DNA of 64,000 bases from the NCBI GenBank assembly GCA_951406725.2, contig OX597817.1:148800001-148864000 (forward strand), given 5' to 3'. The notes under the pieces were generated by a model. That model searched no databases. It worked only from the letters and a program-made list of their open reading frames with translations, and had not been told where the DNA came from. This stretch comes from Octopus vulgaris. Lineage: Eukaryota. Below, piece by piece: positions 312 through 63,470 of this stretch. A program made the position numbers and the translations under genes. Position 1 is the first letter of the stretch, and every line of letters starts with the position of its first letter.

Positions 312-530
312 AGGCGGTGAGCTGGTAGAAGTGTTAGCACGCCGGACGAAATGCTTAGCAGTATTTCGTCTGCCCCAGCATTCTCAGTTCAAATTCCGCC
401 CTGGTCGACTTTGTACTTTACCATTTCGAGTCGATGATTTAAGTACCAGTTGAGTACTGGGGCCGATGTGGTCGAGTGTCCCGCTTCCCCACAAAATCCA
501 GGCCTTGTGTCAGTAGTAGAAAGAATATTA
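312..530 (+). mobile_element. tRNA-derived SINE family 1, tail type A
   Basis: Head ggcggtgagctggtagaagtgttagcacgcc, B-box-like cagttcaaatt, central gtcgactttg...aagtaccagtt block and tail ggccttgtgtcagtagtagaaagaatatta. Homologous copies recur across the window. Confidence 0.85.
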
Positions 531-3560: not shown

Positions 3561-4677
3561 GGAATATAGATGTTGCACGGACATATATATGAATGTATAT
3601 GTATATATGCATTATATATATGTATGTACGTATATATACATATACGTATGCGTGAGCGTTTGTGTGTGTGCGTACGCGTATGTGTGTATGTATGTGTGTG
3701 TGTATGTGTGTGTATTGAAAATATTACGACGTCTCACACGATAAAATTCATATTAATAGTGAAGAGAAGAAAAGATAAAAGAAAATATTTGTATTTTATC
3801 AAAATATGCTACCGGTTTCAATCGTTTGTTTAAAAACAAAAATATAAATACTTTCTTTTACGCATAATTGTTTATTGCAGAACACTGATGTGGTGAATAT
3901 CGATATTATATAATTAAGAAACTGTTATGTAATTATGATGGTAATTTACCGAAACACGTATTTATACTATAAAGTATTGAACACCTTATATAATTTATGC
4001 ATATTATTATTTAACTTGACTGGTATTCTGCATACAACCTTATACTGAGGTTGATGCCCCGTATCAGGCACCACTAGACTGTGTGTGTGGAATCTTCTAT
4101 TGAGTTCAATCTTTTTTTATATGTCACGGTTTTTATTCGATATATACGATCTAGGAAAAGGATGAAAATACATTCATAAAAAAAGGAACGAATTTGAAGT
4201 AAGTATATTATTTTATTTCTGTGTATATTCTTACTCTTTAATGAAATTGCTGATTGTTATCATCGCTAGAACTGTCCTTATAGATTACGGTTTTACTGAT
4301 TCACTCACAAACAGGGCAGAATGGACATTCTTAATCGATCGAATAAGAAATATAAGAAACATGTAAATAAGTACATTAACTGTGACGAGGTTAACCTAGA
4401 AGAATGCTATCCACATGTGAAATGTACTGTGAAATACATAGCTTCTAGGTAATCTCTTTAAAAACGATTTGTTTGCATCTGTATTCTTTATTTACCTATC
4501 AGCTTTCATTGTCCGTCTCTTTTTTCTCAATCCCCCTCTCGGATTTTATATACACGCATATACATAAATATACGTGTGTGTGTGTGTGCTTATGTACATA
4601 AATACACACACAGGCCACAGAAACGCGAACGTACACAAAAGCATATCATATATCTATATATACATATGTATATGTAT

Positions 4678-4711
<34 letters not shown>

Positions 4712-4740
4712 ATACATGTGTAGATATATATATATATACA

Positions 4741-4843
<103 letters not shown>

Positions 4844-6382
4844 CCCCAGCATAGCCATAGCTCAAGAGCTGAAACTGGAAAACATAAAATAAACATATAC
4901 ATATATATATAAAACATTACATGTGTTTGTGTGTTGTATGTATGTATAACAGTAACTTTGAAAATATCTACATACGTATCTATTTGTAAATGTACGTACT
5001 TTAACACTCTCACAGCTATACATACTCATATATGCACAAACATAAATACATACATCTACATACATTTACACATAAATCTCTCCATCTATGACTGTGCATG
5101 TGAATGCTTTCATATACGTATATAAGGGTACGAAATGCGTGCATATATGTATAAATACACAGACACGCAAACACATATTCTTCCATCGATGCATTTACCA
5201 ATTTATTTACGCAGCAGTAAAATCTTTTCGTTTGTCCAATTAGAAAGAAATGCCATTCGCTGCTGTAAAAAAGAAAGAAAAAAGAGCTTGTCTCGCAGAC
5301 TAACCTCAATAGACCAAAACGATGCTCGACAAAATCCAGTAATAGGGACCGATTTAATGCCAACTACTTGACTAGATAACTGGAATTTGATTCTAATTCA
5401 AACAGAAGTGCTTCAAGAGAAATGATGTGGTCACATTTACGTTGTTTGAGCCGAGGAGTGCCAGAATAGATATGTAGCATAGGCAGTAAAGAGTTAGAGA
5501 TACAAAGAAGGGAGGAATACCATATATCTAGTGGGAAAACGAAGTGAGTGAGAAGGAACGAGAGATGGAATATGGATGAGAGAGAGTAAATGAGAAGAAG
5601 AGAGATTGATGAGAAGGATCTTATGTAGAGATCAGGTTGAAAAGACAGACGGAGAGTAGAGGCTTCTGGATAATCAGCGTGTATAAAATTGATATATAAT
5701 GTTGTAGAACTCCAGCGGAAACTCTGATATGTCTTAAATATTGGAAAGGAAGAACTTGTAGAGATTATAAGGAGCCTAAAAGTAGACTTTCATGTGACCA
5801 ATTGATCAGCTAGAAGTAGCAGCCACATATTTCTTAAATCTCGGGCTTAACCGTGTTAAAAAGAAAATATACGTCTATGGAAATGTCTTAGACTAAGAGT
5901 AATAAAAAAAAAATGTCGATGGCTGGGTTGATTGTTAATATTGGTCTAAGCCATCGGAGATTATTGGGATGAAAGAAAAATATGAAGCAAGTGTTTAAAT
6001 CGGCTGTTATCCTATTTAATCAGCCGAATAGTTCTGTGCTGTTTTATCATAATGCTTCATACCCTGACGATATGTCGCCTTGTGGTGGGTTGGGTTTAGG
6101 AGTGTTTACCTGCACCTTCTTTTCCTGGATCGGGCAGAGTTTTGTGTCTTTGGGCAAAGCATTTCCTTTCACGTTGCGCCACTCTACTCAGCTAAACACG
6201 AGAACCAGCCTCTTGCTGTCTCATTCTCCGATGACCCGCTGAGTAGAAGGTGCTTGAACCAAGAACACGTTTAAATCTGTTCGCCACTGCGAATTGCTTA
6301 AACAATTAGAGAAATTGTGGTAGAAGGTATCAGGTCATATTCGCTTCCGAGTGACAAATATGTTTCATTCTGATAGGCTAAT

Positions 6383-6493
6383 ACAATTCTATATTTAAGA
6401 GATGAGGAACTGTGTACATTATTTACATTACTTACATTTGACGGATAACAAAGATGAGGACAAATATCCGTCAAATGTAAATAATGTAAATAA
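6383..6493. mobile_element. Short fold-back derivative of the 2512-2987 element (tail plus inverted tail)
   Basis: ctatatttaagagatgaggaa...atttgacggata followed by aagatgaggacaaatatccgtcaaatgtaaataatgtaaataa. Perfect 12-bp TSD tgataggctaat (6371-6382, 6494-6505). Confidence 0.8.
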
Positions 6494-7545
6494 TGATAGG
6501 CTAATGTTATCCCATAACCTGATTATCTTGTCTTGTATTTTAATCTAAACACCTATATAAGTTTCATATAAGAAATGCCCTTCACTGATTTTGATAGTTT
6601 GTCAGAACTGCCCGGCTATTTTTATAGAGAATTAACCTACTCCTTTCATTAACTAAATTGCAACCATATTGCTCTTCATATTCGAGTTCTTCGTTGCTCT
6701 TCTGATGACACGTTTTTTGTGTGTCATAACAGTTGGAGTTCATTATATACTCCCACATGACAAATTTCAATATATTTAGTGTTGACCAGAGACTATATAT
6801 GATCTGAAATGTTCATATTCAACTTCGGAATATTTTACCATAGCTTGGTAACATAAGTTCTTTCACTTTTATTATATAAAATATAAAAGACCAATAGTAT
6901 AATTGTCAGATATGTTGCCAGAGTTATTTATGTGTACAAGATGACTCACAGCCTGTGTCCCCACATATTCCATGTACTAAACAAGTCAATTATAGCAGCT
7001 ACGACATCGTTATACCAAACTGCAGACACGTCCAAATTTTAATCCACAGATAACATGTTGAATGGTATAGAATTCAAAACCAGTTATCTCATTTTAAATT
7101 TCCAGTTAGGAAATTGTAGTTTAGATATTTCTCTGAAAAATATCTTCGATTAAGCTTCTTGTATTACACGATCTAAAACATTCCATTTTCTATTCTATAG
7201 TCATTATTTAGAATAGAATATTTTATTCTTCAGATAGAGAGGAATTTGATGATTTTTAAAGGCAAATAAATATTTCATTTCAAAATCAAACTGAAGAAAT
7301 TACGTTTTATGTTACTTAAAGCATTAGAGAACAATTCAAAATTTATATAAATTGCATGAATGTTGTGCTGAAGAGTTGTTAGACTTATTCTTGTACAGGC
7401 CATTAAAAAATAAATAAAACTGTTTCATTTACATAAATTGAATATTTCATAATGTACACTTGACATGAATACTTCGTTAGAGAACATTTCGCCGTATGTG
7501 ATGTGCATGTATTTGTCTTCACATATACATGCACACATATATTGA

Positions 7546-7608
<63 letters not shown>

Positions 7609-7666
7609 GTATATATATATATATACATAGATTCATATATATGTATACACATACATTTATATATAC

Positions 7667-7698
<32 letters not shown>

Positions 7699-7749
7699 AC
7701 ATATGTATATATATATATACATAGATTCATATATATGTATACACACATT

Positions 7750-7815
<66 letters not shown>

Positions 7816-8341
7816 CATTCATATATATGTGTATACACATTTATATATACATATATATATGTACGTATACGTATATGTATGTGTGAATGTAATGTATAAA
7901 TATGCACTCGTTAAAAAAGAGCAAAAGAGAGAGAGAAATACATAGAAAGAGGAATATTACGTGGAAGTATATTTATCATGTGATATATTTACGTTTTATA
8001 ACAGCGTTTAAGTGTATACGTGCGATCATATTTAATACATACGCCTGTGTGTTTGCGTGAGTAGGGGTGGTTGGTTGGTTGGGTAGTAAGTTGGATGGTT
8101 GGTTGGCTGTGTGTGTGGGAGGAGTGGCTTTTGTACTGCATTTGCGAGTATGAGGTTAAGTGTGAGTTTGTGCGTGTATGGATGTGTGTAAGTATTTCTA
8201 TGGAATTTGTTCCAGGAGTGTAGTTATTATTCCGTAGTGTTTATGTTCGTATTGTGGCATAAACGCGGATATAGACACACCACACGCGCGCTACTCACAC
8301 ACACAGACATATACACAAACATGTTGACATATGTGTGTATG

Positions 8342-8374
<33 letters not shown>

Positions 8375-8428
8375 ATGTGCCTGTGCTTGTGAGTCTGTGT
8401 GTCAGTTTGTATATATGTGTACGGATGT

Positions 8429-8466
<38 letters not shown>

Positions 8467-8575
8467 GCATATACATATACACACGCAAATATAAATACAT
8501 GCATATTTAGATAAAGAGGGGGAGCAGGACTGACTGACAGACCAACAGACAGACAGACAGACAGATAGATAGATA

Positions 8576-9471
8576 TGTTTCTTTATTAGCCACAAAAGGC
8601 TGCACACAGACAGGACAACATTACAAGGTAGAGCTTTTCTTTTGGCGGTAAAAGAAGGGGGTTTGGTTTTCGATCAAAAGGGATCGTAAATGGAAAGAAA
8701 GAGGAAAAAAAGGGGAGGATAAAATAATTTTTTAAAAAAAAAGGTGAGGTGAGAGAAAAAAAGGGGAGGTGAGGAAAAAAAATGGAAAGGAAAAAAATTG
8801 ATCAACAGGGATCGTTATCACAGAAATGTCCATATGAAGTGTAAAGGGGAGGACAGGTGAGGTTTACCCGTGGGAAGAAAAGCCTACGGAAAAGACCACG
8901 GTAACCTCGGTCAATGAAGTCACATGTTATATTCCTTTTTTTTTTTTGGCAAATAAGCAACTCTCTGTATTAATTTTTACGGTTCATAGAATCATAGTCA
9001 AGGTGGCTTCGTCATTCATACGTGCCATCCTTGCTACATTCACCCATCTTTTTTTAAAACATTCACTAGACAAAAAGTTGTCCATAGGTCCCGGCCTGAA
9101 AGTCGTTTCAAACAGGCGGGTCAGGTATTCCTCGTCGACGCCCAGGTTTGCCCCAAGATCGTCGCCGTACCTCCCCTCCACTAATCCCCTATAGAATGCT
9201 TTGGTTGTGTTGAAGTCACTCAAAGTCGACCCGGGACGGCAGAGTTGCTTGAGAGCAACGCGACACTCGCGGTGCCATTCGACCTTCCTTGGCCTCTTTT
9301 TGATCCACGACTGCAGTTCGGTCATGGAGACGAGCTGCGGGAACGCGTGCCTCACAAACGACGACCACACCTGTTCACCATCGTCTACATAGAGCCGGAG
9401 ATGTCGCAGTCTCAGCGCGTGTCTGCGCATCATCAACCATGTCGCAGTCTCAGCGCGTGTCTGCGCATCAT
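8576..9471 (-). mobile_element. 5'-truncated, internally deleted L1/Tx1-clade LINE (relative of 10774-15540)
   Basis: ORF 8984-9631 contains WLMMRRHALRLRHLR...TTKAFYRGLVEGR...GPMDNF joined to LSSECFKKRW, homologous to the ORF2 C-terminus at 11061-12596. AATAAA precedes (TATC)n; GACA/GATA repeats on both sides. Confidence 0.9.
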
Positions 9472-10069
9472 TAGACAGACAGACTTCCGCGAAGGAGAGC
9501 AGATAACCCGAAGTATGCATACATAGGACCAGAGTCAATTCAATATACACTATATCATATATACATCTAAAGCATCGTAAAGTATTACGTCCACGTTTGG
9601 AATCGTCGGCGTGGCATAACTCGAGACACAAATTAGTAATGGTAAACTAAGCTAAACTTAACATTCTACGAAGAGAAATGACGGAAGGCAGAAGCTATTT
9701 CATACAATAAAAGACAAATTTCCTCTTTTCATTTCTCTTCTTTTCCATCAATCAATTTTTAGAATATGATATATCTGGAGTTAGTGAATGGAAATATTAG
9801 CAATTATGAAATCAAAGTATTCCATTGGAGAACTTGTTTGATTTGCTTCTTCCATGTGTGATTTCCCTATCACAAGAAAGTATAATATTTTACAATCTGT
9901 TGTAACTTTGATCAAAGCTTTGACTAGCCGAATACTTACATTCACTTACTTCACAATTTGGAGAAGAATTTCACATCATCTGCTGGCTAAATATAGTTTA
10001 ACTCTCGCTTCTCGTCTAACAAATATGCCATATCGGGAAAATATGGTCGTGTGAGAAATAAAGCAGGCA

Positions 10070-10285
10070 AGGAATTTCTAGCGATTGGGTAAAATTATTA
10101 CATTGATTCCGGTGTTCAACTAGTACATATTTTATCGATCCCGAAAAGGATGGAAAGTAGACGAATAGAAAGGAATGGAAAATTTGACCTCGGCGGAATT
10201 TGAACTCAGAACGTATAGTCGGACGAAATGCCGCTAAGCATTTTATCCGGTGTTCTCACGATTCTGCCATGTCACTCCCTTCATC
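10070..10285 (-). mobile_element. SINE family 1, diverged
   Basis: gacctcggcggaatttgaactcagaacgtatagtcggacgaaatgccgctaagca is the reverse complement of the family 1 head. Confidence 0.75.
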
Positions 10286-10673
10286 TATTTAGTCATTTAA
10301 CAGCAAAACTTCATTGACAATAGGCACCTTTATTACTTAGAAGTTTTCAATTCAAATGTTGCTGAAGATCTGTGAATACCACATGTTATTTCAGGGGAAA
10401 AGAATGCAACACCACATGGTTTACACATGGCAAAGTAGAAGACTAAAGACTTGTGTAGTATCTTGTTTTCTTTTTCGATTTTTTTTTCTTTTGTTCAATG
10501 AACAAGCAAAGTTTCGTGTCAAATTCATTAATGGTATTTTTGTATTTCAACTTATCTGTTCACTTAGTATATTGCCATAATGCGTCATTTGATGAGTCGT
10601 CTGGAATATCGGTACGCGAAACTTATGTTTCGAGAAGAATATGCATACATATATACATGCACTCATGCATAGA

Positions 10674-10687
10674 GATAGATAGATAAT

Positions 10688-10773
<86 letters not shown>
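10674..10773. repeat. (GATA)n microsatellite at the LINE 3' end
   Basis: Direct reading. Confidence 0.95.
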
Positions 10774-10774
<1 letters not shown>

Positions 10775-11060
10775 CTTTTTATTGTGGCCACACAGGGCTA
10801 TACACAGAATAAAGATGGACGAAAAACAAAGGTTCGATCAATAGGGATCTGTGGGTTGTGTGGAGTATAAAAATATAATATATATATATATATAAATAAA
10901 GTTCACAGTTTAGGTGTAGCCCTGGAAAGAAAAAACCTACAAAAAAGACCAAGGTCACCTCAGACAGTTCGAAAATGAACACATGAGTAAGTCGCCTTAC
11001 ATCTCGTTGTCTCTTTTGGTCACAGATTTACGCTTAAAATAGTGTCGTCTTTCATACTGA

Positions 11061-14000
11061 CTATTTTTCCACTTTTACCCACTTTTTATTAAAACATTCG
11101 TTCGACAAAGCCTTCCTCTCTATTCTCATCCTCCTTTTCAAGTGGTACTTGAAAAAGTTGACGAGAGACTGACCAGAGAGGAAGGTGTTTGTTTGCAGTC
11201 CTTTCAAACGCGTCCACCACACACATTCTTTCGCCATAGCCATCAGCGTAACGAAAACCGTTTTCCCTTCCCGTTTAAAGGAAGGTGGTGGAGTAATATT
11301 CACGATAGACTCGGCCGATAAGCGGGCTCGTCCTACACGCGACAACAGCTGTTCGACGAAGGTCCACAGCTCTGAAATATCTGGACACTGCACGAGTGCG
11401 TGCAGAACGGTTTCGTCGCTGTGACCGCATCTCGGGCAGGTCGGTCCGGTGATGGTTTTCGAACCGTGCCTGTAGCTCTTCTCTTGAACAGGTAGTGCGT
11501 CACGATAGCATTGCCAAGCCAGGGATTTCTGGAAGTTATCCATAGGCCCCGGGCCGAACGTCGTCCTGAACAGGCCGGTTAGGAATTTCTCGTCGACGCC
11601 CAGGTTTGTACCGAGTGTGATGTCGGACCTCCCCTCCACTAGTCCTCTATAGAACGCTTTAGTCGTTTGTAAGTTGCACAATTTTGACCCCGCTCGGCAG
11701 AGCTGCTGTAGAGCTTGGCGACACTCTCGGTGCCAATCGCCCAGTTTCGGTCTCTTCCTGATCCACGTTTGCAGTTCGGTCAGTGAGACGAGCTGCGGGA
11801 AGGTGCGCCTCACAAACGGCGCCCACACCTGTTCACCGTCATCGATGAAGTTCCGGAGATGTCGCAGTCTCAGCGCATGCCTGCGCATCATCAACCACGG
11901 CATGCCCATTCCTCCATTCAACGGATATTGACAGCAAATGGACCTCCTCACCATTGGAACGCCACCCTTCCACATGAAGCGGAAGAGTATGCGTTCCAGT
12001 TTGGTGATGGTGGCGTCGGGACAAGGCACGACGGTCAGGCGGTAATCGATGACGGACGCGATGTACGCGTTCGCCACCTCCGCCCGACCTTTTAGAGACA
12101 GCTTTCTCTCGGCCCATGTTTGGCTGAGAGTGACCATTCTACTCGTGATCTCGTCCCAGTTCTTATCCATTTGGAGGTCCGGACTGAACCAGACCCCGAG
12201 CAATTTAACCGGTCCGTCTGTCCAGCGTCCCACTATTGAGCCGCAGTCGGACGGCATGGGCTTGCTTCTCCAGGTGCCGAGTAGCAAACCCACTGACTTT
12301 TCCGGGTTAATCTTCGCTCCCGTCACCGTTTCGTATTTTCTTAGTGTCTCGCCTATCATCTGGATGTGTTTTTCGCTCGACACTATGACGGTGACATCGT
12401 CTGCATATGCCGACACGCTCGTCCCGCAACCCAGCTCCCGTGGGATGCCCCTCAGTGTCGCCAGCTTCCGCAGTAGCGGCTCGAGAGTCGACAGAAGTGC
12501 CGACAGGGGACACCCCTGACGGGCCGAACGCGTGATATCAAACGGTTTCGACAGGTGGCCGTTCACCCGAATCACCGATCGGATGCCGCTATACAAGGCA
12601 GCGATCCAACCGCGGAAGCCAGCCGCCCTGAGGACGGCCCCAAGTACCGATGGTCGACCCTATCGAAGGCTTTAGACTGATCCAAATTTATCAGCGCCCC
12701 ACCCATGCCAGGATCCTTAACTACCCTGTCCACAATGTAGCGCATCTGATGGAGGTTGTCATGTATGGTTCTGCCCAGCACGGCGCATGTTTACGCCCTG
12801 CCGATCAGTTTACCAATGACAAGCGCCAACCTCTCGGCTATTACTTTGGCCAAAATTTTCAAATCTGCGTTAAGCAGAGTGACGGGCCTGAAAATATCTA
12901 TAAAATTCCCCTTGTTTGGGTCTTTCTTCAGCAACGACATTGCACCTCGGCTCACGAAGCCGGGGATTCTCCCGTTTTGTTGCCAGTTGCAGTAGACTGA
13001 TGCCAAGAGGTCGCCAAACAAGTCTGGCATTTGACAATACAGCTCGTAGGGTAAACCATCCAATCCAGGCGACTTATTCCTCGCGCAGCCCGCCATCGCA
13101 TCCCACACGTCAGCGGCTGTGATGGGACTTTCACAACACTCCGCTTCTCTTGCCGAGAGCAGTGGCAGGTCGGTCAGGTAGGCACTGATATCCATCCCGC
13201 GTTCCAACCTACCACTCGCACCAAACAGTCGAGCAAAGTGCTGTTGAAAGGCCTCACACATCCTTTAGGGTTCGAGTAAACTGCATCCCTGTTGATCTAT
13301 TAGAGACCGAATGGTGGCTCTGTTTTCACGCTGCGCCTCCGCTATCCGGGCCTCTCGCGCAGCTTCGAGCCCTTCGTTCCTTAAGGCACGCATTTTAGCT
13401 CTGACGACGCAACCTTCGTGCTTAGCGTTGAGGTGTTGGTCGAGGGCCATCCTTGCAGCCAGCACGTTGGTTGCGCTGCCAGTGGTAAGTGCCTCTTCTA
13501 GTTTCTTAACCAGGTCTCCCTCTACTCTATTTGGATCTATCGCTAATTCTTTGCTAAACCTAATTGATTCCGATTTTATTGCCATTTTCAGGGCGTACCA
13601 CCAGCGGTTGTTAACGACGGCTCCCGTCAGCGCCCTCTTAATTAACTCGCTAATCCGGTTCCTATAAACCTGTCGCGCTAAGAGCGACGTGTTCAGTTTC
13701 CAGTAACCGGGACCCTGTCTATGTGTCTTATCTAAGTCGAGCATAGACGTCGCAAATTTGGGATCTGTGTAGCTGACTATTTTAAATTGTGGACATCCAA
13801 TCCGCTGTCCTGCATAGAATTCTATCTAGATAAGATCTCGACGATCCGACGCGGTTTGTCCAAGTCCACGTTGGCACGTTCGGATGGTCATTCGGAACCT
13901 GTCAGACAAATGGAAACATCTGAGTAGGTCTTTGAGGCAATTACACCCCCTTCTATTCCTATCCATTCCCACATAATCTAGATGCGTGTCCAAGGTAGCG

Positions 14001-14422
14001 CTCCAATCCCCTACTAAGAGTAAAGGTCTAGACGTACCCAGGAAAACCTCTAGACGCCTGAAGAAATCCGCTCGACCCGTTAAGGACGGTACATAAACTG
14101 CCATCAGACGGAATGCACACCCATTTCTGCCATCCACGTCCAAGACAACCAGCCTACCCTCCGGGTCTAGGAATGTTGTTCTTACTTTTACATTTAGACT
14201 CTTTCGAAAAAGCACCGCGGTACCTCCACCACCCATGTTCGGCAGACAGGGAGAAAAATAAATGTCAAATTGATCGCCAAACATGGACGCGAGGGCCCGC
14301 GGCTTGCTGAGTCTGGTTTCACTGATACCTACTATATCCACGTTCTTGATGTCGTTTAGAAGGTAACCTTGCTTCCAAGCCGACGCCAAGCCACGCGCAT
14401 TCACACAACCTAATTTAAGCAT
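11061..14422 (-). pseudogene. ORF2 (APE endonuclease + reverse transcriptase + C-terminal CCHC) broken by stops and frameshifts
   Basis: NARGL/ISETR/VGDWSATLD (APE); GPGYWKLNTSLL and KSPGLDGLPYELY (L1/Tx1 hallmarks); RPVTLLNADLKILAK, LDQSKAFDRVDH, RQGCPLS, YADD (RT); CPRCGHSDETVLHALVQC. Spread over five ORF fragments. Confidence 0.93.
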
Positions 14423-14496
14423 AATTGATGTTTACGAAAATTGTATTTCACACACTACATTGGAAGAGACAAGAGGCAAGAGGGAAGGTCACTTAC

Positions 14497-15448
14497 TCAT
14501 TTCGAAAGTTTCATTTTTTCTTCTTCTTTTGTAGTATCTTTGATGAGGTGTTTGTATAGTTTTTTGGAGAGGTATCGTTGAAACCCGCCTACCGCATTTG
14601 GAAATATTGTTTTCAGTGTATGGTGTTGTGTTTGTGTTATGTGTACAATTTTTATGTGTTTCGGTGGTGTGGTGCGCGGATGATTATTTGTCTTAAGGTC
14701 ATCTTCACAGATGTCCGTGTTGGATGCAATGTAATCCATTAATTTTTTATTGTCTGTGTCTATTGCAGTTAGTTGTGTGTGTGGTTTTGCGGGTTCATTG
14801 ATTTTTTTATTGTCTAGGGGGATGCTGTCCGGAGTTAAATATCTCCCTGCTTTACTTCCTTGTTTGGTGAGCTTTTTTGATCTTTTCCTTTTACCCCCTG
14901 TGGCTATTTGCCATTCCGTCGAACTTTCGTCGTCCGACGAATCAGAAGGGGGTAAAGGCAAAGCATTTGCATTAATATGTATGTTAGGAAAAATTGTTGA
15001 TGTTTTGCGCGGTGTTTTGTGCGGTGTCTTTTTAATTGTTGTCCTCGGTTATGGTGTTGGTCTATCTTTTGGTTCAGCATGTTGAATTGGTTGCGACGTC
15101 AACAGTGATTGTGTTGGTACTGTTTCTTTTCTTGGTGGTGTTGTTGGGGTTTGTTGTTTTTCTTGGCATTGTTCCATAATTGAGTGTGTTGGTGTTGGTG
15201 TTGGTGTTGGCAACAAGAGTTTTTTATTTGTTCTTTCTTGCAGTAGTAGTCTCGTTGTTGTTGTTGTTAGTGGTGGTGGTGGTGGTGACAGGGCTGTTAC
15301 CGCAAGTGGTTGCAACGTTCACTACCTCGTCATTCAGGTTTGCACTTTGCGTGCATAAGTTCGTTTTTTCTCCTAGCGTTTCCAGACAAGGAAAATGTTG
15401 GTCCATAAAGGAACGCGACCAGCGTTCTACAATAAAATTTCTCGACAT
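14497..15448 (-). pseudogene. Putative ORF1 of the Tx1-like LINE, frameshifted and low-complexity
   Basis: Collinear fragments 15224-15448, 15049-15315 and 14497-14961 immediately upstream of ORF2. Contains an EWQIATGGKRKRSKK basic patch. Confidence 0.55.
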
Positions 15449-15540
15449 TTTTTAATGTCGAGAAGAAAATTACACAAAATATGGGCTATAAATAGCCAAA
15501 ATGAACGATTACCTTCGGAGCCGATGTGACAACACGCGTC

Positions 15541-15664
<124 letters not shown>

Positions 15665-16143
15665 TCAGGAAAGGTTAACCGACTAGCAGACTAGCAATAG
15701 CTATTACGACTGACCGTTCTCAGTGCACCACTAATTGCCTCGGTTTAATAATTTAAAGCGTACAACAGAATACAGAATACAACAGCAATATTTATCTAAT
15801 TTGAACTCCGCCCTTAGTAGAAGTTTATCCAGATATTAACGTTGTATGTCTCCTGAAAAATGCATAGTGATATTCAGTGAGGTATATTTTCCAACCGTTT
15901 AAAGAGCAATTAGCACAGAAATATTAAATCCGTTAGCCAATATATCATCAGGACTTCTGTCAAAAAAAGTTTAAACAATTCACCTAGTAATATGTCTCCT
16001 GGAACTGCACCAGGCAACCCAACATTTCCAAACATCAAAGTGAAGTGTAGAATGTAACCAATCGTAGAGAGAGTAGTGTTGAACGCAATTCAGTATCTAA
16101 TGAATCTATGCACATAGACGCACATATACGCATATATATATAT

Positions 16144-16188
<45 letters not shown>

Positions 16189-16368
16189 TATAAATATGTA
16201 TACTTATATACATATATATACATATACACATATGTATATATACATCTATATATATACATATATTTGAATATACACATTGATATGTATATACATATAAATA
16301 TATACAGCTATATATATATATGTATGTATTTATATATATGCATATACATGTGTATATTTAAATGTGAG

Positions 16369-16400
<32 letters not shown>

Positions 16401-16529
16401 CATACATATATATGTACACAGATTTACATATAGATATATATATACATATATATATATATGTATATATATACATATATATGCATGCAAATATATATATGTG
16501 TGTGTGTGATTGTGTGTATGTGTGTATAT

Positions 16530-16568
<39 letters not shown>

Positions 16569-16595
16569 CATGCATGTATATATATGGAAACACAG

Positions 16596-16635
<40 letters not shown>

Positions 16636-17479
16636 AGAGAGAGTCCTGGAAGAATATGACGGTTCTAATAAGTATACATTTCCTTTTCAGTACTGACTCT
16701 AGGCATTTAGCCAAATCATTTGAAGCTGACCGAATGGAGAACATCGAAGATAGTTCACTTATAAATGTAAAAGTGTAAAGTATCGGCTTTCTGTTAGAAT
16801 AATGCTATATCTTAACAGAGCTTTAGTCTTTTCTCTTGCTAGGCACTATCTACTACAACTAATGAGTAATATAATAGATGGAGAAAACAACCTTATGATG
16901 AAATATAATTATATGAAAGAAGAGTGAATTTCCCTATTCTTGTTGTATTCCAATGTTGCTATGCTAGCTATGTTAAGCCCTAAAGATTGTATTCACGTTG
17001 GATCATAAAGATTATGTAAAGGATGTGTACGACCAGAAGCTACCTACGCAACAGTCTTTCTGTTCTCGAATAATATAATCGCAAAAATGTAAAGGCTCAG
17101 GCATACTGGCAGTATTTTGGTCGAAAGCAATGCAGGTAACCTCTGTTCAGTAGAAATTCTTACGATTTTAAAGGGGGAGAGGCAATGGGTAGATTGGTCA
17201 AGGTAAATGTCGTTTTAAAAGCAGAAATAAACTTTGGTGAAAAGCATTTTTTGTGAAAAGCATTTATCGTTTCTGTGGAAGAACAAGACTGACTTAGAGA
17301 TTAAACAATGAATACACTCACTAAAGGTTTTGAGAAAATAACTCTGTACGAACTTTTGGCATCTAAGATTGTAAGTGGACCATATATAAACTATAACTGC
17401 TGCAATATTTTTTCACTTGCTAAATCTAGAAGAAGGGACAATTCCTACGATATTTGCAAGTTCTTGAAGGGTTTTTGTA

Positions 17480-17700
17480 TTTGATGCCGTTAATGTTCCG
17501 TTTCAACTGATGCAGGTGAGCACTTGCAGGAAACACATGAACAAAAGTGTCCAGGAAGATAAAGTTTTGCAGATGAGAATTGCAAATGTAAGTGTGTTGG
17601 AATACCCGAGTAATGGAGGTACAAGGTTTTTTAGTTCCGAGAGAGAGAGACAACAGAAGTAGCAACAGAAAAGAAAGAGACAATTTGTGCTAGGCAATGG
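17480..17700 (-). mobile_element. Degraded CR1/L2-group LINE 3' ORF2 remnant
   Basis: Fragments SELKNLVPPLL and HVFPASAHLHQLKRNIN resemble CR1/L2-group C-terminal motifs. Confidence 0.4.
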
Positions 17701-18224
17701 AGCTTGTCCGTTAGTGACAGACTACCAGGATATCTATGAATTTGTCAAAATATGGCTGGCTCTTGTTTCTTACTTCAGATCCGATTTGGTCAAAGAGAAA
17801 AATTATTAAAATCATAGAAGATAAAAAAATCCTGTCTTTTATTGTATCTAAAATGACACGATCAAATGTACCTTTTCAAATTTTAAACCAAAAGATGTGA
17901 TTGAAGGGCAACTAAATTGCTATTTTGATGGTTTGTATTATAAAAGTTTGAGAAAAGAGGTAACGGAAAATAATTACATTGTTTTCATACAGATATTTTC
18001 CAAAAGGGTTGTTTTCTTCATCTTAGGTACTAAGTTCAAATTCCGTCAGGTTCAACTTTATCTTTCATCCTTTTGGAGTCTATAGTACTGCTTGATCACT
18101 GGTGTCGATTTAATCCAGTTAGCCACTCCTCAAAACCTGCTGGCATTGTGCCAGAATTTGAAACCTATATTTTACATCGGAGCTCCTCCATCTGAAAATT
18201 TCGAACCTATATTTTACGTCTAAG

Positions 18225-20150
18225 CTCCTCCATCTGAAAGCCCTAACCTCTGCTGAGTAATACGCCAGCATTAGTGACTTTGTCATCAGAATTATCATGA
18301 ATACAAGAAAGCCAATTCTAGTCCACGTTGATTCCTTCTGGTGAAAAGAGAAAGCGAACCATTGTTCAAAGTCTTTGAGGGGATTAAAATCGCCGACCTC
18401 GTCGGGTTATTCATATCGGATAACTTCAAAAGACGTACCCACCCACATAGGTTGGCCCTCTATAGGGACGACGGCCTGGCTATCTCAAGCTATATGAAAG
18501 GCCACAAGATGGACAGGTTCAGGAAGAATTTGATAAAAATATTTAGGGTGTTCGGCCTCTTCATAACGGTCGATTTTTGGGGCGTAACCTTAGACCTGAG
18601 TATAGGCAAGTATTACGCGCACAGGAAGACTAACGAGGATACAGTATACATCCGCTAGAGCTCAAACCATCCCACTGCTGTAATTCGAAACCTGGCTCTT
18701 GGCATTAGTAAAAGACTATCTAACCTGTCGGCTAATAGAGGCATCTTTAACAGAGCTGCCTCCCACAAGAACGATGCTTTGGCTAGACGCGGGTTTACTG
18801 AGAAGCTCGCGTATGTGGGCAACCCCCAAACATCCTCTCCTCACGCAAAAACGATTAGGGGAAGAGACATTATATGGTATAATGCCCCTTTTAACATGGA
18901 CTTTTCCACCAACGTAGCTAAAGGCTTCCTGCCATTAAGAAACACTTTCCCAAAGGCCATCAGTATTACAAACTCTTCAGCCCTCCCCCAATAATGTCAA
19001 GGTGAACTGTTCCTGCTTACACAACATTGCATGCATCAACAGACGCAAAAATGCACCCATACCACCCCAACCACAACCTGCAACTGCTGAAACCCCACCA
19101 TGTGCACTTTAGAAGGATCTTGTTTCTCAAGGGCCGTTATATACAGAGCCACTCTTACACCATCCGATGACATTACTAGGCACTATGCGGGTATGACAAC
19201 TAATGACTTCAAGGGAGGGTACTCCCAGCATGTGCACTCGTTTAGATCCAGGGACAGAGAGAACTCTACTTCCCTTTCTCGTTTTCTCTGGAGACTCCGT
19301 GATCTTCGAGTTGAAATACCCAGCATCATGTCTACAGAGCGTCACCATATTCACCCGGCGCCCCGGCTGCCAGCTCTGCTCACACGAAAAACTGCATATC
19401 CTCCAACAACCCGCAGTATCCATCAACAAGAAATACCACATTCGCACCAGCTGCTTCTCTACACCACCTGCACCAAGGTCACCACTCGCAACCAACCCCC
19501 TGGGCCGGACCGATATTTACTAATTACCAACGTTCACCAAATTCCAACGCTTGTTTTGGGCGTATATACTCGCACATGCGCGTGTTCAGATGCTTATGTG
19601 GACGCGCATGCGTATGTGCGTGCTCACTGGTATGCATGCGTACATACATGCGAATATACATAGGTACATATGAATGAATACTCGTGTATGTGTGTACATG
19701 CATGCGTGTGCGTATGTATGTGTGCATGTGCACACTTGCATATTCGTCCAATCTTGTGCGTATGCAGACGCTCGCGCCCATGTACAGATGCGCGCACTCG
19801 CATCAATACTATATGAGCGCTTCTACACACCCAATTATAAAACTATGTACTTGCATATGTCACCCCTTCCCACTTCCCACCCAACGACCTGACCGATTTC
19901 TAAATGCCATGTGATCTATTTCCTGTCCTCCACGTGGTCAATTTCCTGTTTGCTATACGGTATTTTCCACTTATCCGTTACCCATATACCAACATCAAGC
20001 TACGACACCACGTGACCATCTTCGACCAGTCGCAGCCCACGTTACAGCAATAATAATCAACGTCTGTCATTCAAATCTAAAATGGCTGACGACTATCCTC
20101 ACGCTTGAAACCCAAGAAGTTAAGATGATGTGACAGCTGCAGATACATTC
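18225..20150 (+). mobile_element. Penelope-like element, Naiad-like (RT + GIY-YIG), 5'-truncated and decayed
   Basis: IADLVGLFI, LYRDDGLAI, FWGVTLDL, IIWYNAPFNMDFSTNVAKGFL, CNC*NPTMCTLEGSC, VIYRATL...HYAGMTTNDFKGGYSQHVHSF, CQLCSHEKLHIL. Degenerate CTGACGA...GAAAC at 20086-20111. Confidence 0.85.
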
Positions 20151-20179
20151 ATACATAGCAAGAGAATGAGTGAGGTGGG

Positions 20180-20261
<82 letters not shown>

Positions 20262-21379
20262 GGGAGAGAGAGATAATAAGTAGTAATTTTGCAACTGTAT
20301 CTGTCAGGTTGTTTTTAAATTTTACCTGGAAAAAAAACATGACAGAATATGTTTATAGTTGTTTCATTGAGTTACTAATTTAACAATCAATTTAAGATCA
20401 AAGTCTTTTCTGTCTCGTCGTTACTTACCTACACTGCTATTTCAATAGTTGTAGCAATCTTTCAAACCAATTCCAAAGAATACATCCATGTAATCGAACG
20501 AAATGGGCAATTAACTACGACCGTTATTAGCTATTGATTTCCCTTCTGGTTGCAGAGTTCATTTTAAGCGGTCACCATCGCCGCACTAAGAGGAAGAACT
20601 GATCGAGAGACGCATAGAAACAAGAACAGAACACAGTCAGACTGACACTCACCCCAGCGTATACACATACGCTCATGATTTAATGCCAATATATAAAATT
20701 ATGTGTGTGTCTGTGTGTGTTTGCTTGTGTATGTGTGTGTGTTTATGTAAGTGTGTGTATGTGAAACCGTTAACCGGAAAGTGCTTTATCACGATTTACT
20801 ACTGCGTTACTAATAGATTAACTCCATATGAATGAACAAAGACTTTGCTTTGTTGATCAACCGAATATTAGTACGTTTCGATATTGCCTGCAACATTCTT
20901 TTCCATCCCCACTCTTACTCTTTCTCTCCTCCTTTTACTCTTGCATCTCACCATCCTTATCGTGTTCATCCTCATCATGATCAACACAATTATTTATATC
21001 CACCCTCAATCATCAAAAGAATAAAAAAAATACTACTTGTTTCGTACAATGATTTGCTTTACTTTTGGAAGACTAACTTCAAACAATACAATATTATAGT
21101 GTGTATCATTGTAAAGCGAAATTCAAAGGAAATGAAGCACTTTGAAATGTCTTCAAATCTTAAGTCTATCCTCCGTGTCACCAATTCCTTTATAAGATGT
21201 TAATTCATTGACGTCTTCAAAGGAACTTCTCTCTGCTATTCAACTGCTATTCCAAAGCCGAGATTTAGCTGTGCTCAGTTATTTTAGACCAATATATTCA
21301 ATCAGGTACTATATAATTTTTTTTTTACTTTTTTTTAATATAGGTCCTTGTTTTGTCCCAATGATACTTTAACTAAACA

Positions 21380-21630: not shown

Positions 21631-21655
21631 TGTTAGAAATATCTGACCCAAAGAA

Positions 21656-22059
21656 GGCGGCGGCTGGCAGAAACGTTAGCGCGCCGGGCGAAATACTTAG
21701 CGGTATTTCGTCTGCCGGTACGTTCTGAGTTCAAATTCCGCCGAGGTCGACTTTACCTTTCGTCATTTAGGAGTCGATTAAATAAGTACCAGTTACGCAC
21801 TAGGGTCGATATAATCGACTTAAACCGTTTGTCTGTCCTCTCTATGTTTAGCCCCTTGTGGGAAGTAAAGAAATAGGTATTTCGTCTGCCGCTACGTTCA
21901 AAGTTCAAATTCCACCAAGGTCGACTTTGCCTTTTATCCTTTCGGGGTCGATTAAATAAGTGCCAGTTACGCACTGGGGTCGATATAATCGACTTAATTC
22001 GTTTGTCTATCCTTGTTTGTCCCCCCAGTGTGTAGCCCCTTGTGGGCAGTAAAAAAATA
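21656..22059 (+). mobile_element. SINE family 1 dimer, tail type B, with 21-bp TSD
   Basis: Full unit plus a second unit starting at ggtatttcgtctgcc. TSD agaaatatctgacccaaagaa (21635-21655, 22060-22080). Confidence 0.92.
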
Positions 22060-23304
22060 AGAAATATCTGACCCAAAGAAACCACATTTAACTGCACAAA
22101 ACTCATGCTGTAGTGCCGACGTTTTATCGGTTCCATGGAAAGCTGGCGTTTGGCAGCTCCACTGTCGCGGTGGAAGTGATCGACATACCTACAGATCTGC
22201 TTCACTACCTAATATGACATTGATTCCTGCATTTGGAGACCGACTATACCGGCATCCTTAGAATGTGCATCTATTGTGAGCACTTTTAAAGCGTACGAAT
22301 TCTGACTGGCATTTGTGTGATGCGCTTTCTATCAACAACCAAATTTGATATATTTATTCAGATGTAGCTCAATGATTTTTACCAAACAACTGGTTCTTAC
22401 TTTGCTTTTCCCTTATGCTATGAACACATATACAGCATACGATGTGCTAATTCGCCCTAGCGTAATATACTGTGATTCTACAAGCAAATTTACGAAACAG
22501 GTACTCAGACTGTAATTAAGTATTAGTACCATGTACGTGGCTAGTACCACTCAATTTTTACCTCACGTTCACGCGACAATCTGTTCTGATCAAGGAGAAG
22601 TATTTTTTTACGAACTCAAGATGTGTGCCTAAGAGTTATTAAATGTGGTCACAAGGAAAATTTATGCGGCATTACACAATGATTTAGATTTAACATTAAA
22701 AAAAAAAATCTCCAAAACAAATTTGATTTCACTCAACTACCAGTTGCACTACCACTACTAGATAGAGACTAAAATTACGGAGCGGTGATAGAAGGCGTAT
22801 CATAACCATATATGCTAATAAAGAAAACGGAATTTGAGGAATGTATTTTGGCTGATACTCACCGCATACTCATTAACAGACGGCACTGACTAAAGCTCAA
22901 CCAACGATTTACTCAAATAATCATTCTCAGAATGATTTGTGAAGTTAAAATTTTATTAGCAATTACTCCGTTATTGGATAGAGGGAAGCAGCATTACATT
23001 GTTGATCATTAAAAAAGATTAATCTCGATATCTTTAAAAATCTTGATAGTTACTCTTGACAGTTAAAAAATAAATTTTCAATGTTTTTCCATCATTACTA
23101 TTATGGTAGAAAAAATTTTGTCCTTGCATTGTTCTATATTAATTTTGCTAAGTACAATCAAAATCAAAAACAAAAAAAAACATAAAAAATAATTAAGCAG
23201 GCCTCCTTGTGAACAATACGCTCTCACAAAACCCCACAGGAACAGAAATACGGAAAGGTTTCCGGTTACGAAAGAACAGATTATCTCCTTGTTTACCTTC
23301 TTTT

Positions 23305-36035: not shown

Positions 36036-36930
36036 AAAATTTTGGAATTTTGGGATAAGAACTTTTATCTGTTGGGGTTGGTTTCCGATACTAAGACAGA
36101 GTTTTTATTGTTGCGATAGTTGAAAAAATTGTTGCTGGCTTTGGCCACGATACTATTCATCTTATTATTATTACTATTAGTTATAATATCGTCGGCAAAT
36201 TCCCTGGCTATAGGAATGCTGCCATTGTTATCATCAATAATATAACTGTTATTAAGAATGCTGGTACTATTACCACTAACACCACCACTGTTAATAATCT
36301 GGCTAATGTTATTATCATTATTACTATTGCTAACGCTAATGCTGCTATGAATGTTGCTAATATCCATACTACTTCTATTATTATTATTATTGTATGTTAT
36401 GTTGGAATGGGTAAGGGCGGTGTCGCTACTCATGGGTGGAGAGACCCTATTTAGCAGCTTATTATTATGGGAAGCTATTATCTGCGAAAGATTTTTAGTA
36501 TTTGAGAATGCTATTCTTACTTTATGCGAATTTATAGTGGAGTAGTATCTAGAATTCCTAGGAAAATTCTTAGTAACGGCTTCATGGAATTCTAAAGGGA
36601 GATTAGACCTGATTTGTCTCCCGAAAGGAATCACAAACCAGATATAGTTTTTTTTTGTTCTTGGAATGGCTGAGAGTGTTGACATTTACATTAAAGGGTA
36701 TATTTCTGTGTTGTAGAATGGGTTTAGGTTTACGCTGGCCTCCCCTGGTCCGTAAGTTATTATTGTAAAATATATTTGTGTCGACGTTGCTAGAGCTGAA
36801 ATCACTATTTATGTTATTTATATTATTATTAGAAGTTATCTTATCTTGATGGGCAGATATTAGTTTAGGATGGGTCGGATCGATATATGATACCTTATCC
36901 CTATAACCGGCCTTTGACAATTGGATAAAT
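36033..36930 (-). mobile_element. Penelope-like element fragment (RT thumb/linker), Asn-rich
   Basis: YIWFVIPFGRQIRSNLPLEFHEAVTKNFP...KVRIAFSNTKNLSQIIASHNNKLL parallels the IIWYNAPF...HFP...KVNCSCLHNIA region at 18870-19040. Abuts (TA)n. Confidence 0.7.
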
Positions 36931-52104: not shown

Positions 52105-52750
52105 TCTTATTTCTTTATTACCCACAAGGGGCTAAACCTAGAGGGGACAAACAAGGAGAGACAAACGGATCAAGTCGATTACATCGACCCCAATTCGTAA
52201 CTGGTACTTAATTTATCGACTCCAAAAGGAAGAAAGGCAAAGTCGACCTCGGCGGAATTTGAACTCAGAACGTAGCGGCAGACGAAATACGGCTAAACAT
52301 ATATCTTTACTACCCACAAGGGGCTAAACACAGAGAGGACAGACAAGGACAGACAATCGGATTAAGTCGATTATATCGATCCCAGTGCGTAACTGGTACT
52401 TATTTAATCGACCCCGAAAGGATAAAAGGCAAGTCGACCTCGGCGGAATTTGAACTCAGAACGTAGCGGCAGACGAAATACGGCTAAACATTTCGCCCGG
52501 CGTGCTATCGTTTCTTATTTATTTATTGCCCAAAATGCGCTAAACATAGAGGGGACAAACAAGGACAGACAGGGGGATTAATTCGATTATATCGACCCCA
52601 GTGCGTAACTGGTACTTATCTAATCGACCCCGAAAGGATGAAAGGCAAAGTCGAACTCGGCGGAACTTGAACTCAGAACGTAGCGGCAGACGAAATACCG
52701 CTATTGCGCCCGGCGTGCTATTTCGTCCGTTTCTGCCAGCTCGCCGCCTT
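52105..52750 (-). mobile_element. SINE family 1 trimer, tail B
   Basis: Three units; only the rightmost (5'-most) has the complete head. Confidence 0.9.
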
Positions 52751-55195: not shown

Positions 55196-55234
<39 letters not shown>

Positions 55235-55235
<1 letters not shown>

Positions 55236-55453
55236 TATTTTATTTGTTTCAGTCATTTGACTGCGGCCATGCTGGAGAAGTGCTTTAGTAGAACAAATCG
55301 ACCCCAAGACTTATTTTTTGTAAGCCTAATACTTATTTTATCGGGGTCAATTTCCGAACAGCTAAGTTACGGGGACGTAAACACAGCAGCATCGGTTATC
55401 AAGTGATGGTGGGGGAACAAACACAGACTCACAAACATACAAGCATACACATG

Positions 55454-55489
<36 letters not shown>

Positions 55490-55524
55490 GAGAGAGAGAG
55501 GGAGGCAGAGATAGATAGATAGAC

Positions 55525-55576
<52 letters not shown>

Positions 55577-55593
55577 GGATGGATAGATAGATC

Positions 55594-55691
<98 letters not shown>

Positions 55692-55803
55692 GAAATATAG
55701 ATATAGATATATTCCAAGAAACTTTCCCTAGGTGCCACGCAGAGAGACTGAACCTGGAGCCATGTGGTTGGTAAGCAAGCTACCTACCACACGTCAACTC
55801 CTG
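55235..55803 (-). mobile_element. SINE family 2 with expanded internal (GATA)n
   Basis: 3' body 55235-55440, (GATA)n ~55510-55690, head remnant 55715-55803. Confidence 0.85.
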
Positions 55804-63251: not shown

Positions 63252-63470
63252 GGCGGTGAGCTGGCAGAATCGTTAGCACGCAGGCTGAAATGCTTAGCGG
63301 TATTTCATCTGCCGCTATGTTCTGAGTTCAAGTTCCAGCCAAGTCGACTTTGCCTTTCATCCTTTCAGGGTCGATGAAATAAGTACAGTTATGCACTGGG
63401 ATCGACGTAATCGACTAGACCCTTTCATCAAAATTTCCAAGGCCCTGTACCTAGAGTAGAAATAATTATT
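63252..63470 (+). mobile_element. SINE family 1, tail type A
   Basis: Full head ggcggtgagctggcagaatcgttagcacg and tail ggccctgtacctagagtagaaataattatt. Confidence 0.88.

What the first reader, a model, noticed from the sequence alone, without database searches (positions are those of the whole stretch)
8576..8630. SINE family 1 tail B matches the Tx1-like LINE 3' end
Seen: LINE end ccttgtaatgttgtcctgtctgtgtgcagccttttgtggctaataaagaaacat versus SINE tail ccttgtttgtcccctctgtgtttagccccttgtgggtaataaagaaata (e.g. 47830-47880, minus strand). The long LINE ends similarly (ctgtgtatagccctgtgtggccacaataaaaag). Other family 1 copies (312-530, 63252-63470) have a different tail. Established: shared 3' ends define SINE-LINE partners, mostly for CR1, L2 and RTE and seldom for L1/Tx1. 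Inference: tail swapping onto a Tx1 partner. The SINE copies here are not in GATA, implying relaxed targeting or a sister LINE.
Basis: partly seen in the sequence, partly recalled or inferred. Interest (0 to 1): 0.72.

Follow-up and report, generated by a model that had tools for sequence, protein, structure and literature searches.

The report
Octopus SINE with Tx1-LINE tail
In an octopus-type genome, one subfamily of a short parasitic repeat (a SINE) carries about 40 bases that match the very end of a GATA-repeat-targeting jumping gene of the Tx1 group, so it likely took its tail from that group and likely borrows its copying enzyme, a pairing I did not find described for Tx1 elements.

Summary
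The match is real. A profile built from the 8 tail-B units finds, among 127,934 window positions, only those 8 and then the 3' termini of both LINEs (29.9 and 20.6 bits; background at most 7.4). Tail-A copies do not match. Both LINEs are Tx1-like (endonuclease, RT, zinc finger; nearer Xenopus Tx1 than human L1) and sit in GATA-type repeats; contigs of four public runs show the same GATA flank for the family. The closest named protein is from an octopod.

The partnership is inferred, not shown. Identity is only 33 of 41 bases, no better at LINE-family level, and lower than the youth of SINE-B predicts, so the donor is probably an unsampled sister family. The hairpin is 3-4 bp, shifted in register, without covariation, and no more stable than shuffles. 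None of 4 tail-B insertions lies in GATA.

SINE tail swapping is well known; published L1-clade tails were from plants and an alga, and Tx1-driven SINEU shares no tail. New variant of a known kind.

The parts
8577..8628 (-). 3' terminus of the short Tx1-like LINE; the stretch shared with SINE tail B (core 33-41 nt: small hairpin, then AATAAA)
8577..9471 (-). Short Tx1-like LINE copy: 5'-truncated, 33-nt duplication at its 5' junction, internal deletion at about 9075, about 400-nt 3' UTR
8528..8576 (+). GATA/GACA microsatellite on the 3' side of the short LINE; a GTCT run also lies at its 5' junction (about 9472-9483)
10775..15540 (-). Long, full-length but broken Tx1-like LINE of a second family: low-complexity ORF1 region, ORF2 (about 14422-11061) with endonuclease, RT and zinc finger, in-frame stops and frame changes
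10775..10807 (-). 3' terminus of the long LINE; second-best non-SINE match to tail B (20.6 bits)
10673..10773 (+). GATA array on the 3' side of the long LINE
15541..15664 (+). GATA array on the 5' side of the long LINE
21656..22059 (+). SINE dimer head-body-B-body-B; terminal tail B; perfect 21-nt target duplication at 21635-21655 and 22060-22080
44513..44718 (+). SINE monomer with terminal tail B; degenerate target duplication (13 of 14 core)
47476..48048 (-).
52108..52748 (-). SINE trimer B-B-B; terminal tail B; 9-nt duplication overlapping the tail end
313..530 (+). SINE monomer with tail A (control)
63252..63470 (+). SINE monomer with tail A, ending in ATT repeats; 18 of 22 target duplication (control)

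Best explanation
Tail B of this SINE shares about 40 bases with the 3' terminus of two GATA-inserted Tx1-like LINE families; it was likely captured from a member of that lineage, and the tail-B subfamily was likely copied by that lineage's reverse transcriptase. Shown: the shared sequence, its position at the terminus of both LINEs, a common SINE body with two tails, target duplications on the three insertions that end in tail B. Inferred: capture by template switch, replacing tail A at the base where A and B diverge; a donor that is an unsampled sister family or an ancestor of the short-LINE family; binding of ORF2 protein to the terminal hairpin-AAUAAA stretch; and priming at non-GATA sites through short homology between the SINE's AAGAAA(U) end and the target, because the SINE RNA lacks the LINE's read-through into GATA repeats.
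For: Profile scan picks only the two LINE termini beyond the training set; shuffle tests. The two LINEs are 79% identical over 365 nt of ORF2 and blastn finds no significant match between their 3' UTRs, yet both keep this stretch, and the family majority in four public runs agrees with the long LINE across the hairpin (changes at 8595 and 8597 in 97-99.8% of depth): the motif is old and constrained on the LINE side, which sets the direction LINE to SINE. SINE-B bodies are 92-96% identical to the in-window majority and most laid contigs are 90-99% alike to the short-LINE copy (X1: 14,220 of 20,562), so the ages overlap roughly. A LINE variant at 8612 (27-45% of depth) has the SINE letter, so nearer subfamilies exist. 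Four terminal-type junctions are all followed by AG and an A-rich run resembling the tail end. Relaxed targeting has precedent: only 23% of SINEU-1 and 13% of SINEU-2 lie at the Tx1-Mar target (PMC4494074).
Against: Identity to the SINE-B majority is 33 of 41 (80%), below the 85-95% of tail-B units to their own majority; the two family-level changes gain one match and lose one. Hairpins are 3-4 bp, not more stable than shuffles (z -0.10 to -0.96 for the LINE and tail-B ends), differ in register (6-nt loop in LINEs, 5-nt in SINEs) and show 0 pairs changed on both sides. 0 of 4 tail-B insertions touch a GATA array while 2 of 2 LINEs do. 5 of 8 tail-B units are internal, one trimer ends in tail A. 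A- and B-tailed heads share the same AA before the head (5 of 5) and similar duplication lengths. The 5' part of the match is low-complexity TGTC sequence. No RTE, CR1 or L2 3' ends of this host were available for comparison.
Confidence: 0.55

Rival explanations
1. Tail B comes from a Tx1-like LINE but is a passenger: the SINE is still copied by the LINE that serves tail A (RTE, CR1 or L2 type), which needs only a small hairpin and an A-rich end that can prime by short homology.
For: No GATA targeting (0 of 4). A trimer with two internal B tails ends in tail A. Tail A can form a hairpin with the same CUUGU loop as tail B in at least one copy (501-510). Same AA before the head in A and B copies. 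RTE-BovB is reported as greatly expanded in cephalopods (PMC10294476, passage).
Against: Three insertions end in tail B with target duplications. Tail A against tail B is not convincingly homologous: 3 of 32 pairs had at most 13 of 500 shuffles, none 0. By eye, no T-run about 10 nt upstream of the three B target sites, the RTE signature of PMC6007223 (abstract only); n is tiny.
Confidence: 0.22
2. The likeness is convergent: a polyadenylation signal, a tiny GC hairpin and TGTC-rich sequence arose independently at both 3' ends.
For: AATAAA accounts for part of the match and only 4 of 8 tail-B units keep it. Hairpin register differs. The long-LINE match is weak for some copies.
Against: Dinucleotide shuffles keep the composition and do not reach the scores; a 13-22 bit gap over every other window position and over 80 loci of distant LINE relatives (best 8.7 bits); spacing to the terminus is the same.
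Confidence: 0.1
3. The transfer ran the other way: an ancestral LINE picked up its 3' end from an older SINE of this family inserted in its 3' UTR.
For: The SINE family is abundant and has old members (bodies 65-90% alike to the majority).
Against: No SINE body sequence lies upstream of the match in either LINE; the old SINE copies in the window carry tail A or a decayed tail, not tail B; both divergent LINE families hold the motif.
Confidence: 0.08

Closest known systems
Maize/sorghum ZmSINE2/3 with LINE1-1_ZM, and Chlamydomonas SINEX-3_CR with L1-1_CR (Ohshima 2012, PMC3472496, passages; Ohshima 2013, PMC3747384, passages and Table 1)
   Same: tRNA-type SINE sharing a short (about 50-80 nt) 3' stretch with a LINE of the L1 group; hairpin proposed; taken as stringent 3'-end recognition.
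   Different: Here an animal, a Tx1-like target-specific LINE without poly(A), and no compensatory changes in the hairpin. The table of 58 pairs lists no Tx1 partner and no cephalopod.
SINEU with Tx1-Mar in crocodilians (Kojima 2015, PMC4494074, parts 1-4 of 5 read)
   Same: SINE thought to be copied by a Tx1 LINE; tandem copies; weak target preference in two of three families.
   Different: SINEU has snRNA heads and poly(A); the link rests on a shared target and the paper found no LINE sharing its 3' end. Here the link rests on a shared tail and the target is not shared.
Kibi, Koshi and crocodilian (TTCC)n/(TTTC)n Tx1 families (named in PMC4494074)
   Same: Tx1 LINEs inserted in microsatellites.
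   Different: Target here is (GATA)n; one search for Tx1 + GATA + microsatellite + non-LTR + target found 0 papers. Relationship to Kibi/Koshi not tested: no labelled sequences.
Tail exchange in SINE superfamilies (MetaSINEs, PMC4824008, passages and supplement parts; mollusc SINEs, PMC4758252, passages)
   Same: One head and body with exchangeable LINE-derived tails.
   Different: Named donors in the passages read are CR1 and L2. The body here does not resemble BivaMeta-SINE1 by eye.
Octopus OK, OR1, OR2 SINEs (Ohshima and Okada 1994; not read, cited in PMC4758252 and PMC4824008; the name OK is recalled)
   Same: tRNA-derived, abundant octopus SINEs; this family may well be one of them.

Membership tests
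Tx1 clade (LINEs) | ORF2 with N-terminal AP-type endonuclease, RT and C-terminal zinc finger | tested here: met
   Exo_endo_phos, RVT_1, zf-RVT (the last just under its cut-off) in pieces of the long LINE
Tx1 clade (LINEs) | RT groups with Xenopus Tx1L rather than L1 | tested here: inconclusive
   Leans Tx1: a profile of 7 relatives scores Xenopus Tx1 564 bits, human L1 455. Tree of 51 of 56 offered rows: the lineage with the Argonauta protein (59% identical stand-in; the window's own ORF not in the tree) is sister to Xenopus Tx1 at 91/90, below the strong-support mark; no mammalian L1 in the tree
Tx1 clade (LINEs) | Target-sequence preference | tested here: met
   2 of 2 copies have the microsatellite on both sides, same orientation; GATA runs are 428 of 64,000 nt; loose ends beyond the 3' end read GATA repeats in 4 of 4 runs (57, 63, 47, 38 contigs)
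Tx1 clade (LINEs) | ORF1 with RNA-binding or zinc-knuckle domains (recalled) | tested here: inconclusive
   Broken, Thr/Asn/Lys-rich region; the 183-aa piece scanned has no Pfam match
tRNA-derived SINE | Pol III internal promoter in the head | tested here: inconclusive
   B-box-like motif (recalled consensus) in the SINE units, 21 matches against 5.2 expected; A box by eye only; no tRNA call by ARAGORN or Rfam on the head
tRNA-derived SINE | Short, non-coding, multi-copy, with target duplications | tested here: met
   About 220-nt unit, 17 matching units or fragments; duplications in 4 of 6 insertions tested
Stringent SINE-LINE pair | Shared 3'-terminal sequence | tested here: met
   33 of 41 nt
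Stringent SINE-LINE pair | Shared stem-loop with compensatory changes | tested here: not met
   0 pairs changed on both sides in 10 sequences; register shifted; folding no better than shuffles
Stringent SINE-LINE pair | Same terminal repeat and insertion signature | tested here: not met
   LINEs run into TATC repeats; SINE-B ends in an AAGAAA-type unit at non-GATA sites, 0 of 4
Stringent SINE-LINE pair | Tail-dependent trans-mobilisation | not testable with these tools
   needs a cell assay
MetaSINE | 66-nt Meta domain after the head | tested here: not met
   by-eye comparison with BivaMeta-SINE1 rows in the supplement of PMC4824008; no alignment run
Octopus OK/OR1/OR2, Deu/Nin, Ceph or CORE SINEs | Family consensus or central domain | not testable with these tools
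   no Repbase, Dfam or SINEBase sequences at hand

The most novel reading that the evidence does not exclude
An animal Tx1 lineage recognises its RNA by a specific 3' signal, and one enzyme places the LINE in GATA repeats but the SINE at AGAAA-type sites, including the SINE's own head. Target choice would then be set largely by the RNA 3' end rather than by the endonuclease, and the pair would be a natural experiment on Tx1 targeting.
Probability: 0.25. Interest if true: 0.75.

Novelty: new variant of a known kind. Interest (0 to 1): 0.5.

Why it matters
Animal LINEs of the L1/Tx1 group are usually taken to recognise their RNA loosely, through poly(A). Ohshima 2012 found only three SINEs with L1-clade tails among 58 pairs, all in green plants or algae, and the one Tx1-linked SINE group I found in print shares no tail. 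A very abundant cephalopod SINE subfamily with a Tx1-type tail would extend stringent recognition to animal Tx1 elements, name a likely engine for part of the large octopus SINE load (11.6% of the O. vulgaris genome, mostly unclassified among recent insertions; PMC13282606, passages), and give a short RNA signal to test. A GATA-targeting Tx1 family is a smaller addition to the list of known targets.

Tried and rejected
No whole genome was held, so no genome-wide counts. A degenerate tail pattern found 0 matches in viral, metagenome and genome contigs; a SINE body pattern found 0 in viral contigs. A metagenome scan gave 80 loci of distant LINE relatives (24-35% identity); none holds the tail motif (best 8.7 bits), so the motif is not general to the clade as sampled. 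Scans with close relatives found no confirmed locus in genome or viral contigs, so no third 3' UTR. No RNA holder was listed. Protein atlas and representative search gave no clade names. MetaSINE identity, my first guess, was dropped. Homology of tail A with tail B is not established. tblastn with the L1/Tx1-type proteins fetched by then found no further LINE piece in the window; other clades were not searched for. Literature: 9 answered searches showed no paper on a Tx1-tailed SINE or on the partner of an octopus SINE; subscription papers, Repbase Reports, Dfam and SINEBase were not searchable, and file 1 of two supplements could not be searched.

Full report
Observation. The SINE family gives 17 units or fragments in a self-search, plus one extra hit, which is the short LINE's end itself (34 of 41 nt against that copy, E 2e-6). 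Eight units carry tail B. Against 1000 dinucleotide shuffles of the short LINE's last 100 nt, 7 of 8 tail-B units beat every shuffle and 0 of 6 tail-A-type ends came near; the long LINE gave weaker results, 4 of 8 at 4 or fewer per 1000 and 2 of 8 not significant. A 33-column profile made only from the 8 tail-B units, scanned over 127,934 positions, ranks the training copies first (41.0-51.5 bits), then the short-LINE terminus (29.9), the long-LINE terminus (20.6), then background (7.4 or less). The match is therefore specific and lies at the terminus of both LINEs.

Host and LINEs. The closest named protein is from the octopod Argonauta hians (59% identity), so the host is likely an octopod (inference). 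The long LINE (15540-10775, minus) is full length but broken; its pieces match endonuclease, RT and zinc-finger families. The short LINE (9471-8577) is 5'-truncated with an internal deletion at 9075 that family contigs bridge with the missing coding sequence. The two are 79% identical over 365 nt of ORF2, and blastn finds no significant match between their 3' UTRs; they are different families. A profile of seven relatives scores Xenopus Tx1 at 564 bits and human L1 at 455. In an RT tree (51 of 56 offered rows; 5 dropped for short coverage; the Argonauta protein stands in for the window's own) the lineage is sister to Xenopus Tx1 at 91/90, short of strong support, with no mammalian L1 included. 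'Tx1-like' is the fair label.

Target of the LINEs. Both copies have the microsatellite on both sides and in the same orientation, while GATA runs cover 428 of 64,000 nt. Laying contigs of four public runs (four organism labels, four studies; one may be the source) on 8560-9159 gave GATA repeats as the listed loose end beyond the 3' terminus in all four (57, 63, 47, 38 contigs). The family is abundant there (3,709-20,562 contigs laid per run; depth is not a copy number).

Family-level test. In those runs 97-99.8% of depth differs from this copy at 8595 and 8597, which makes the family read as the long LINE does across the hairpin. One change gains a match to tail B and the other loses one, so identity stays at 33 of 41 against the SINE-B majority. 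A variant at 8612 (27-45% of depth) has the SINE letter. Tail-B units are 85-95% identical to their own majority over the same columns and their bodies 92-96% (that majority is dominated by B units, 8 of 13 rows). So the similarity survives at family level but is too low for a recent capture from exactly this family. A sister family or an older capture fits better (inference).

Structure. RNA folding puts a 3-4 bp hairpin at the same place in both LINE ends and in five of six tail-B ends folded, but none beats shuffles (z -0.10 to -0.96). The LINE hairpin has a 6-nt loop and the SINE hairpin a 5-nt loop, one base out of register; no pair changes on both sides in either register. The structural argument usual for stringent pairs is not met here. 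What speaks for function is conservation: two LINE families keep this stretch, and a second small GATC-N6-GATC motif, in otherwise unalignable UTRs.

The four tail-B insertions are a monomer, a dimer and two trimers. Only 3 of 8 tail-B units are terminal. These three insertions have target duplications: 21 of 21, 13 of 14 and 9 of 9 nt, each unmatched in 300 random flanks. Three of five internal junctions resume at the same base of the head, which suggests a composite master copy or a preferred site in the SINE itself; the other two resume at places where the head resembles the tail's AAGAAA(T) end. The outer junctions also continue with AG and an A-rich run, as expected if the RNA end primes by short homology (inference, n = 4). 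None of the four insertions touches a GATA array. With SINEU-type preferences of 13-23% (PMC4494074), 0 of 3 or 4 is unremarkable, but it gives no positive link to the Tx1 enzyme.

Mechanism. Most likely a SINE with tail A acquired the last 40-50 nt of a Tx1-like RNA by template switching, and the tail-B subfamily then spread with that lineage's ORF2 protein, which binds the terminal stretch and primes at sites matching the SINE's own end (0.55). Common origin of the two sequences I put at about 0.85. The main rival is a captured but idle tail, with the tail-A partner still doing the work (0.22); convergence (0.10) and SINE-to-LINE transfer (0.08) are less likely.

Comparison with print. Ohshima's survey lists 58 SINE-LINE pairs, three with L1-clade tails (maize, sorghum, Chlamydomonas), none with Tx1 (PMC3472496, passages; PMC3747384, passages and Table 1). 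Kojima links SINEU to Tx1-Mar by shared target and states that no LINE shares the SINEU-1 3' end (PMC4494074, parts 1-4 of 5). Tail exchange itself is standard (PMC4824008, passages). An O. vulgaris annotation counts 80 L1-Tx1 families and mostly unclassified SINEs, with no pairing in the passages seen (PMC13282606, passages and supplement passages). PMC4758252, PMC10294476, PMC3272025 and PMC5804259 were seen as passages, PMC6007223 as abstract. Nine answered searches found no report of a Tx1-tailed SINE, but repeat databases and the 1994 octopus SINE paper could not be read, so an existing annotation is possible.

Verdict. Observation confirmed, interpretation partly supported. A real Tx1-type tail on an octopod SINE subfamily; partnership plausible but unproven. 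New variant of a known kind, interest 0.5.

Noticed in passing
window 8672-8685, 8800-8813, 10836-10849 (minus): A second short motif, GATC-CCTNTT-GATC (self-complementary arms, 6-nt loop), occurs twice in the short LINE's 3' UTR and once in the long LINE's, nowhere else in the window. It is absent from the SINE; a candidate second cis signal.
   Followed up: partly
window 21876, 47830, 47646: Three internal SINE junctions resume at the same base of the head right after tail B: either a dimeric master copy or repeated insertion into the SINE's own head.
   Followed up: partly
window 313, 21656, 44513, 52748, 63252: All five intact SINE heads, A- and B-tailed, are preceded by AA; in one case the AA lies inside the target duplication, in another it does not. 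SINE 5' end or shared cut preference is unresolved.
   Followed up: partly
window 9439-9471 and 9075: Short LINE has a 33-nt duplication at its truncated 5' junction and an internal deletion of roughly 420 nt of ORF2.
   Followed up: partly
window 14497-15450: ORF1 region of the long LINE is short, Thr/Asn/Lys-rich, contains AAC/ACC repeat tracts, and the piece scanned has no Pfam match.
   Followed up: partly
window 19091-19663 (+) and 36065-36685 (-): Open frames that by eye recall Penelope-like elements (recalled); no Pfam match at E 0.01.
   Followed up: no
window 18033-18239: 5'-truncated SINE with a third tail-A-like end, followed by a 42-nt tandem repeat that begins within the tail.
   Followed up: no
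window 55230-55440, 55708-55803 and others: At least two further multi-copy SINE-like families (self-match depth 7-11); two of their copies flank a GATA array at 55510-55689.
   Followed up: no
window 41716-41797: ARAGORN calls one tRNA-Ser(AGA); may be a gene or the head of another repeat.
   Followed up: no
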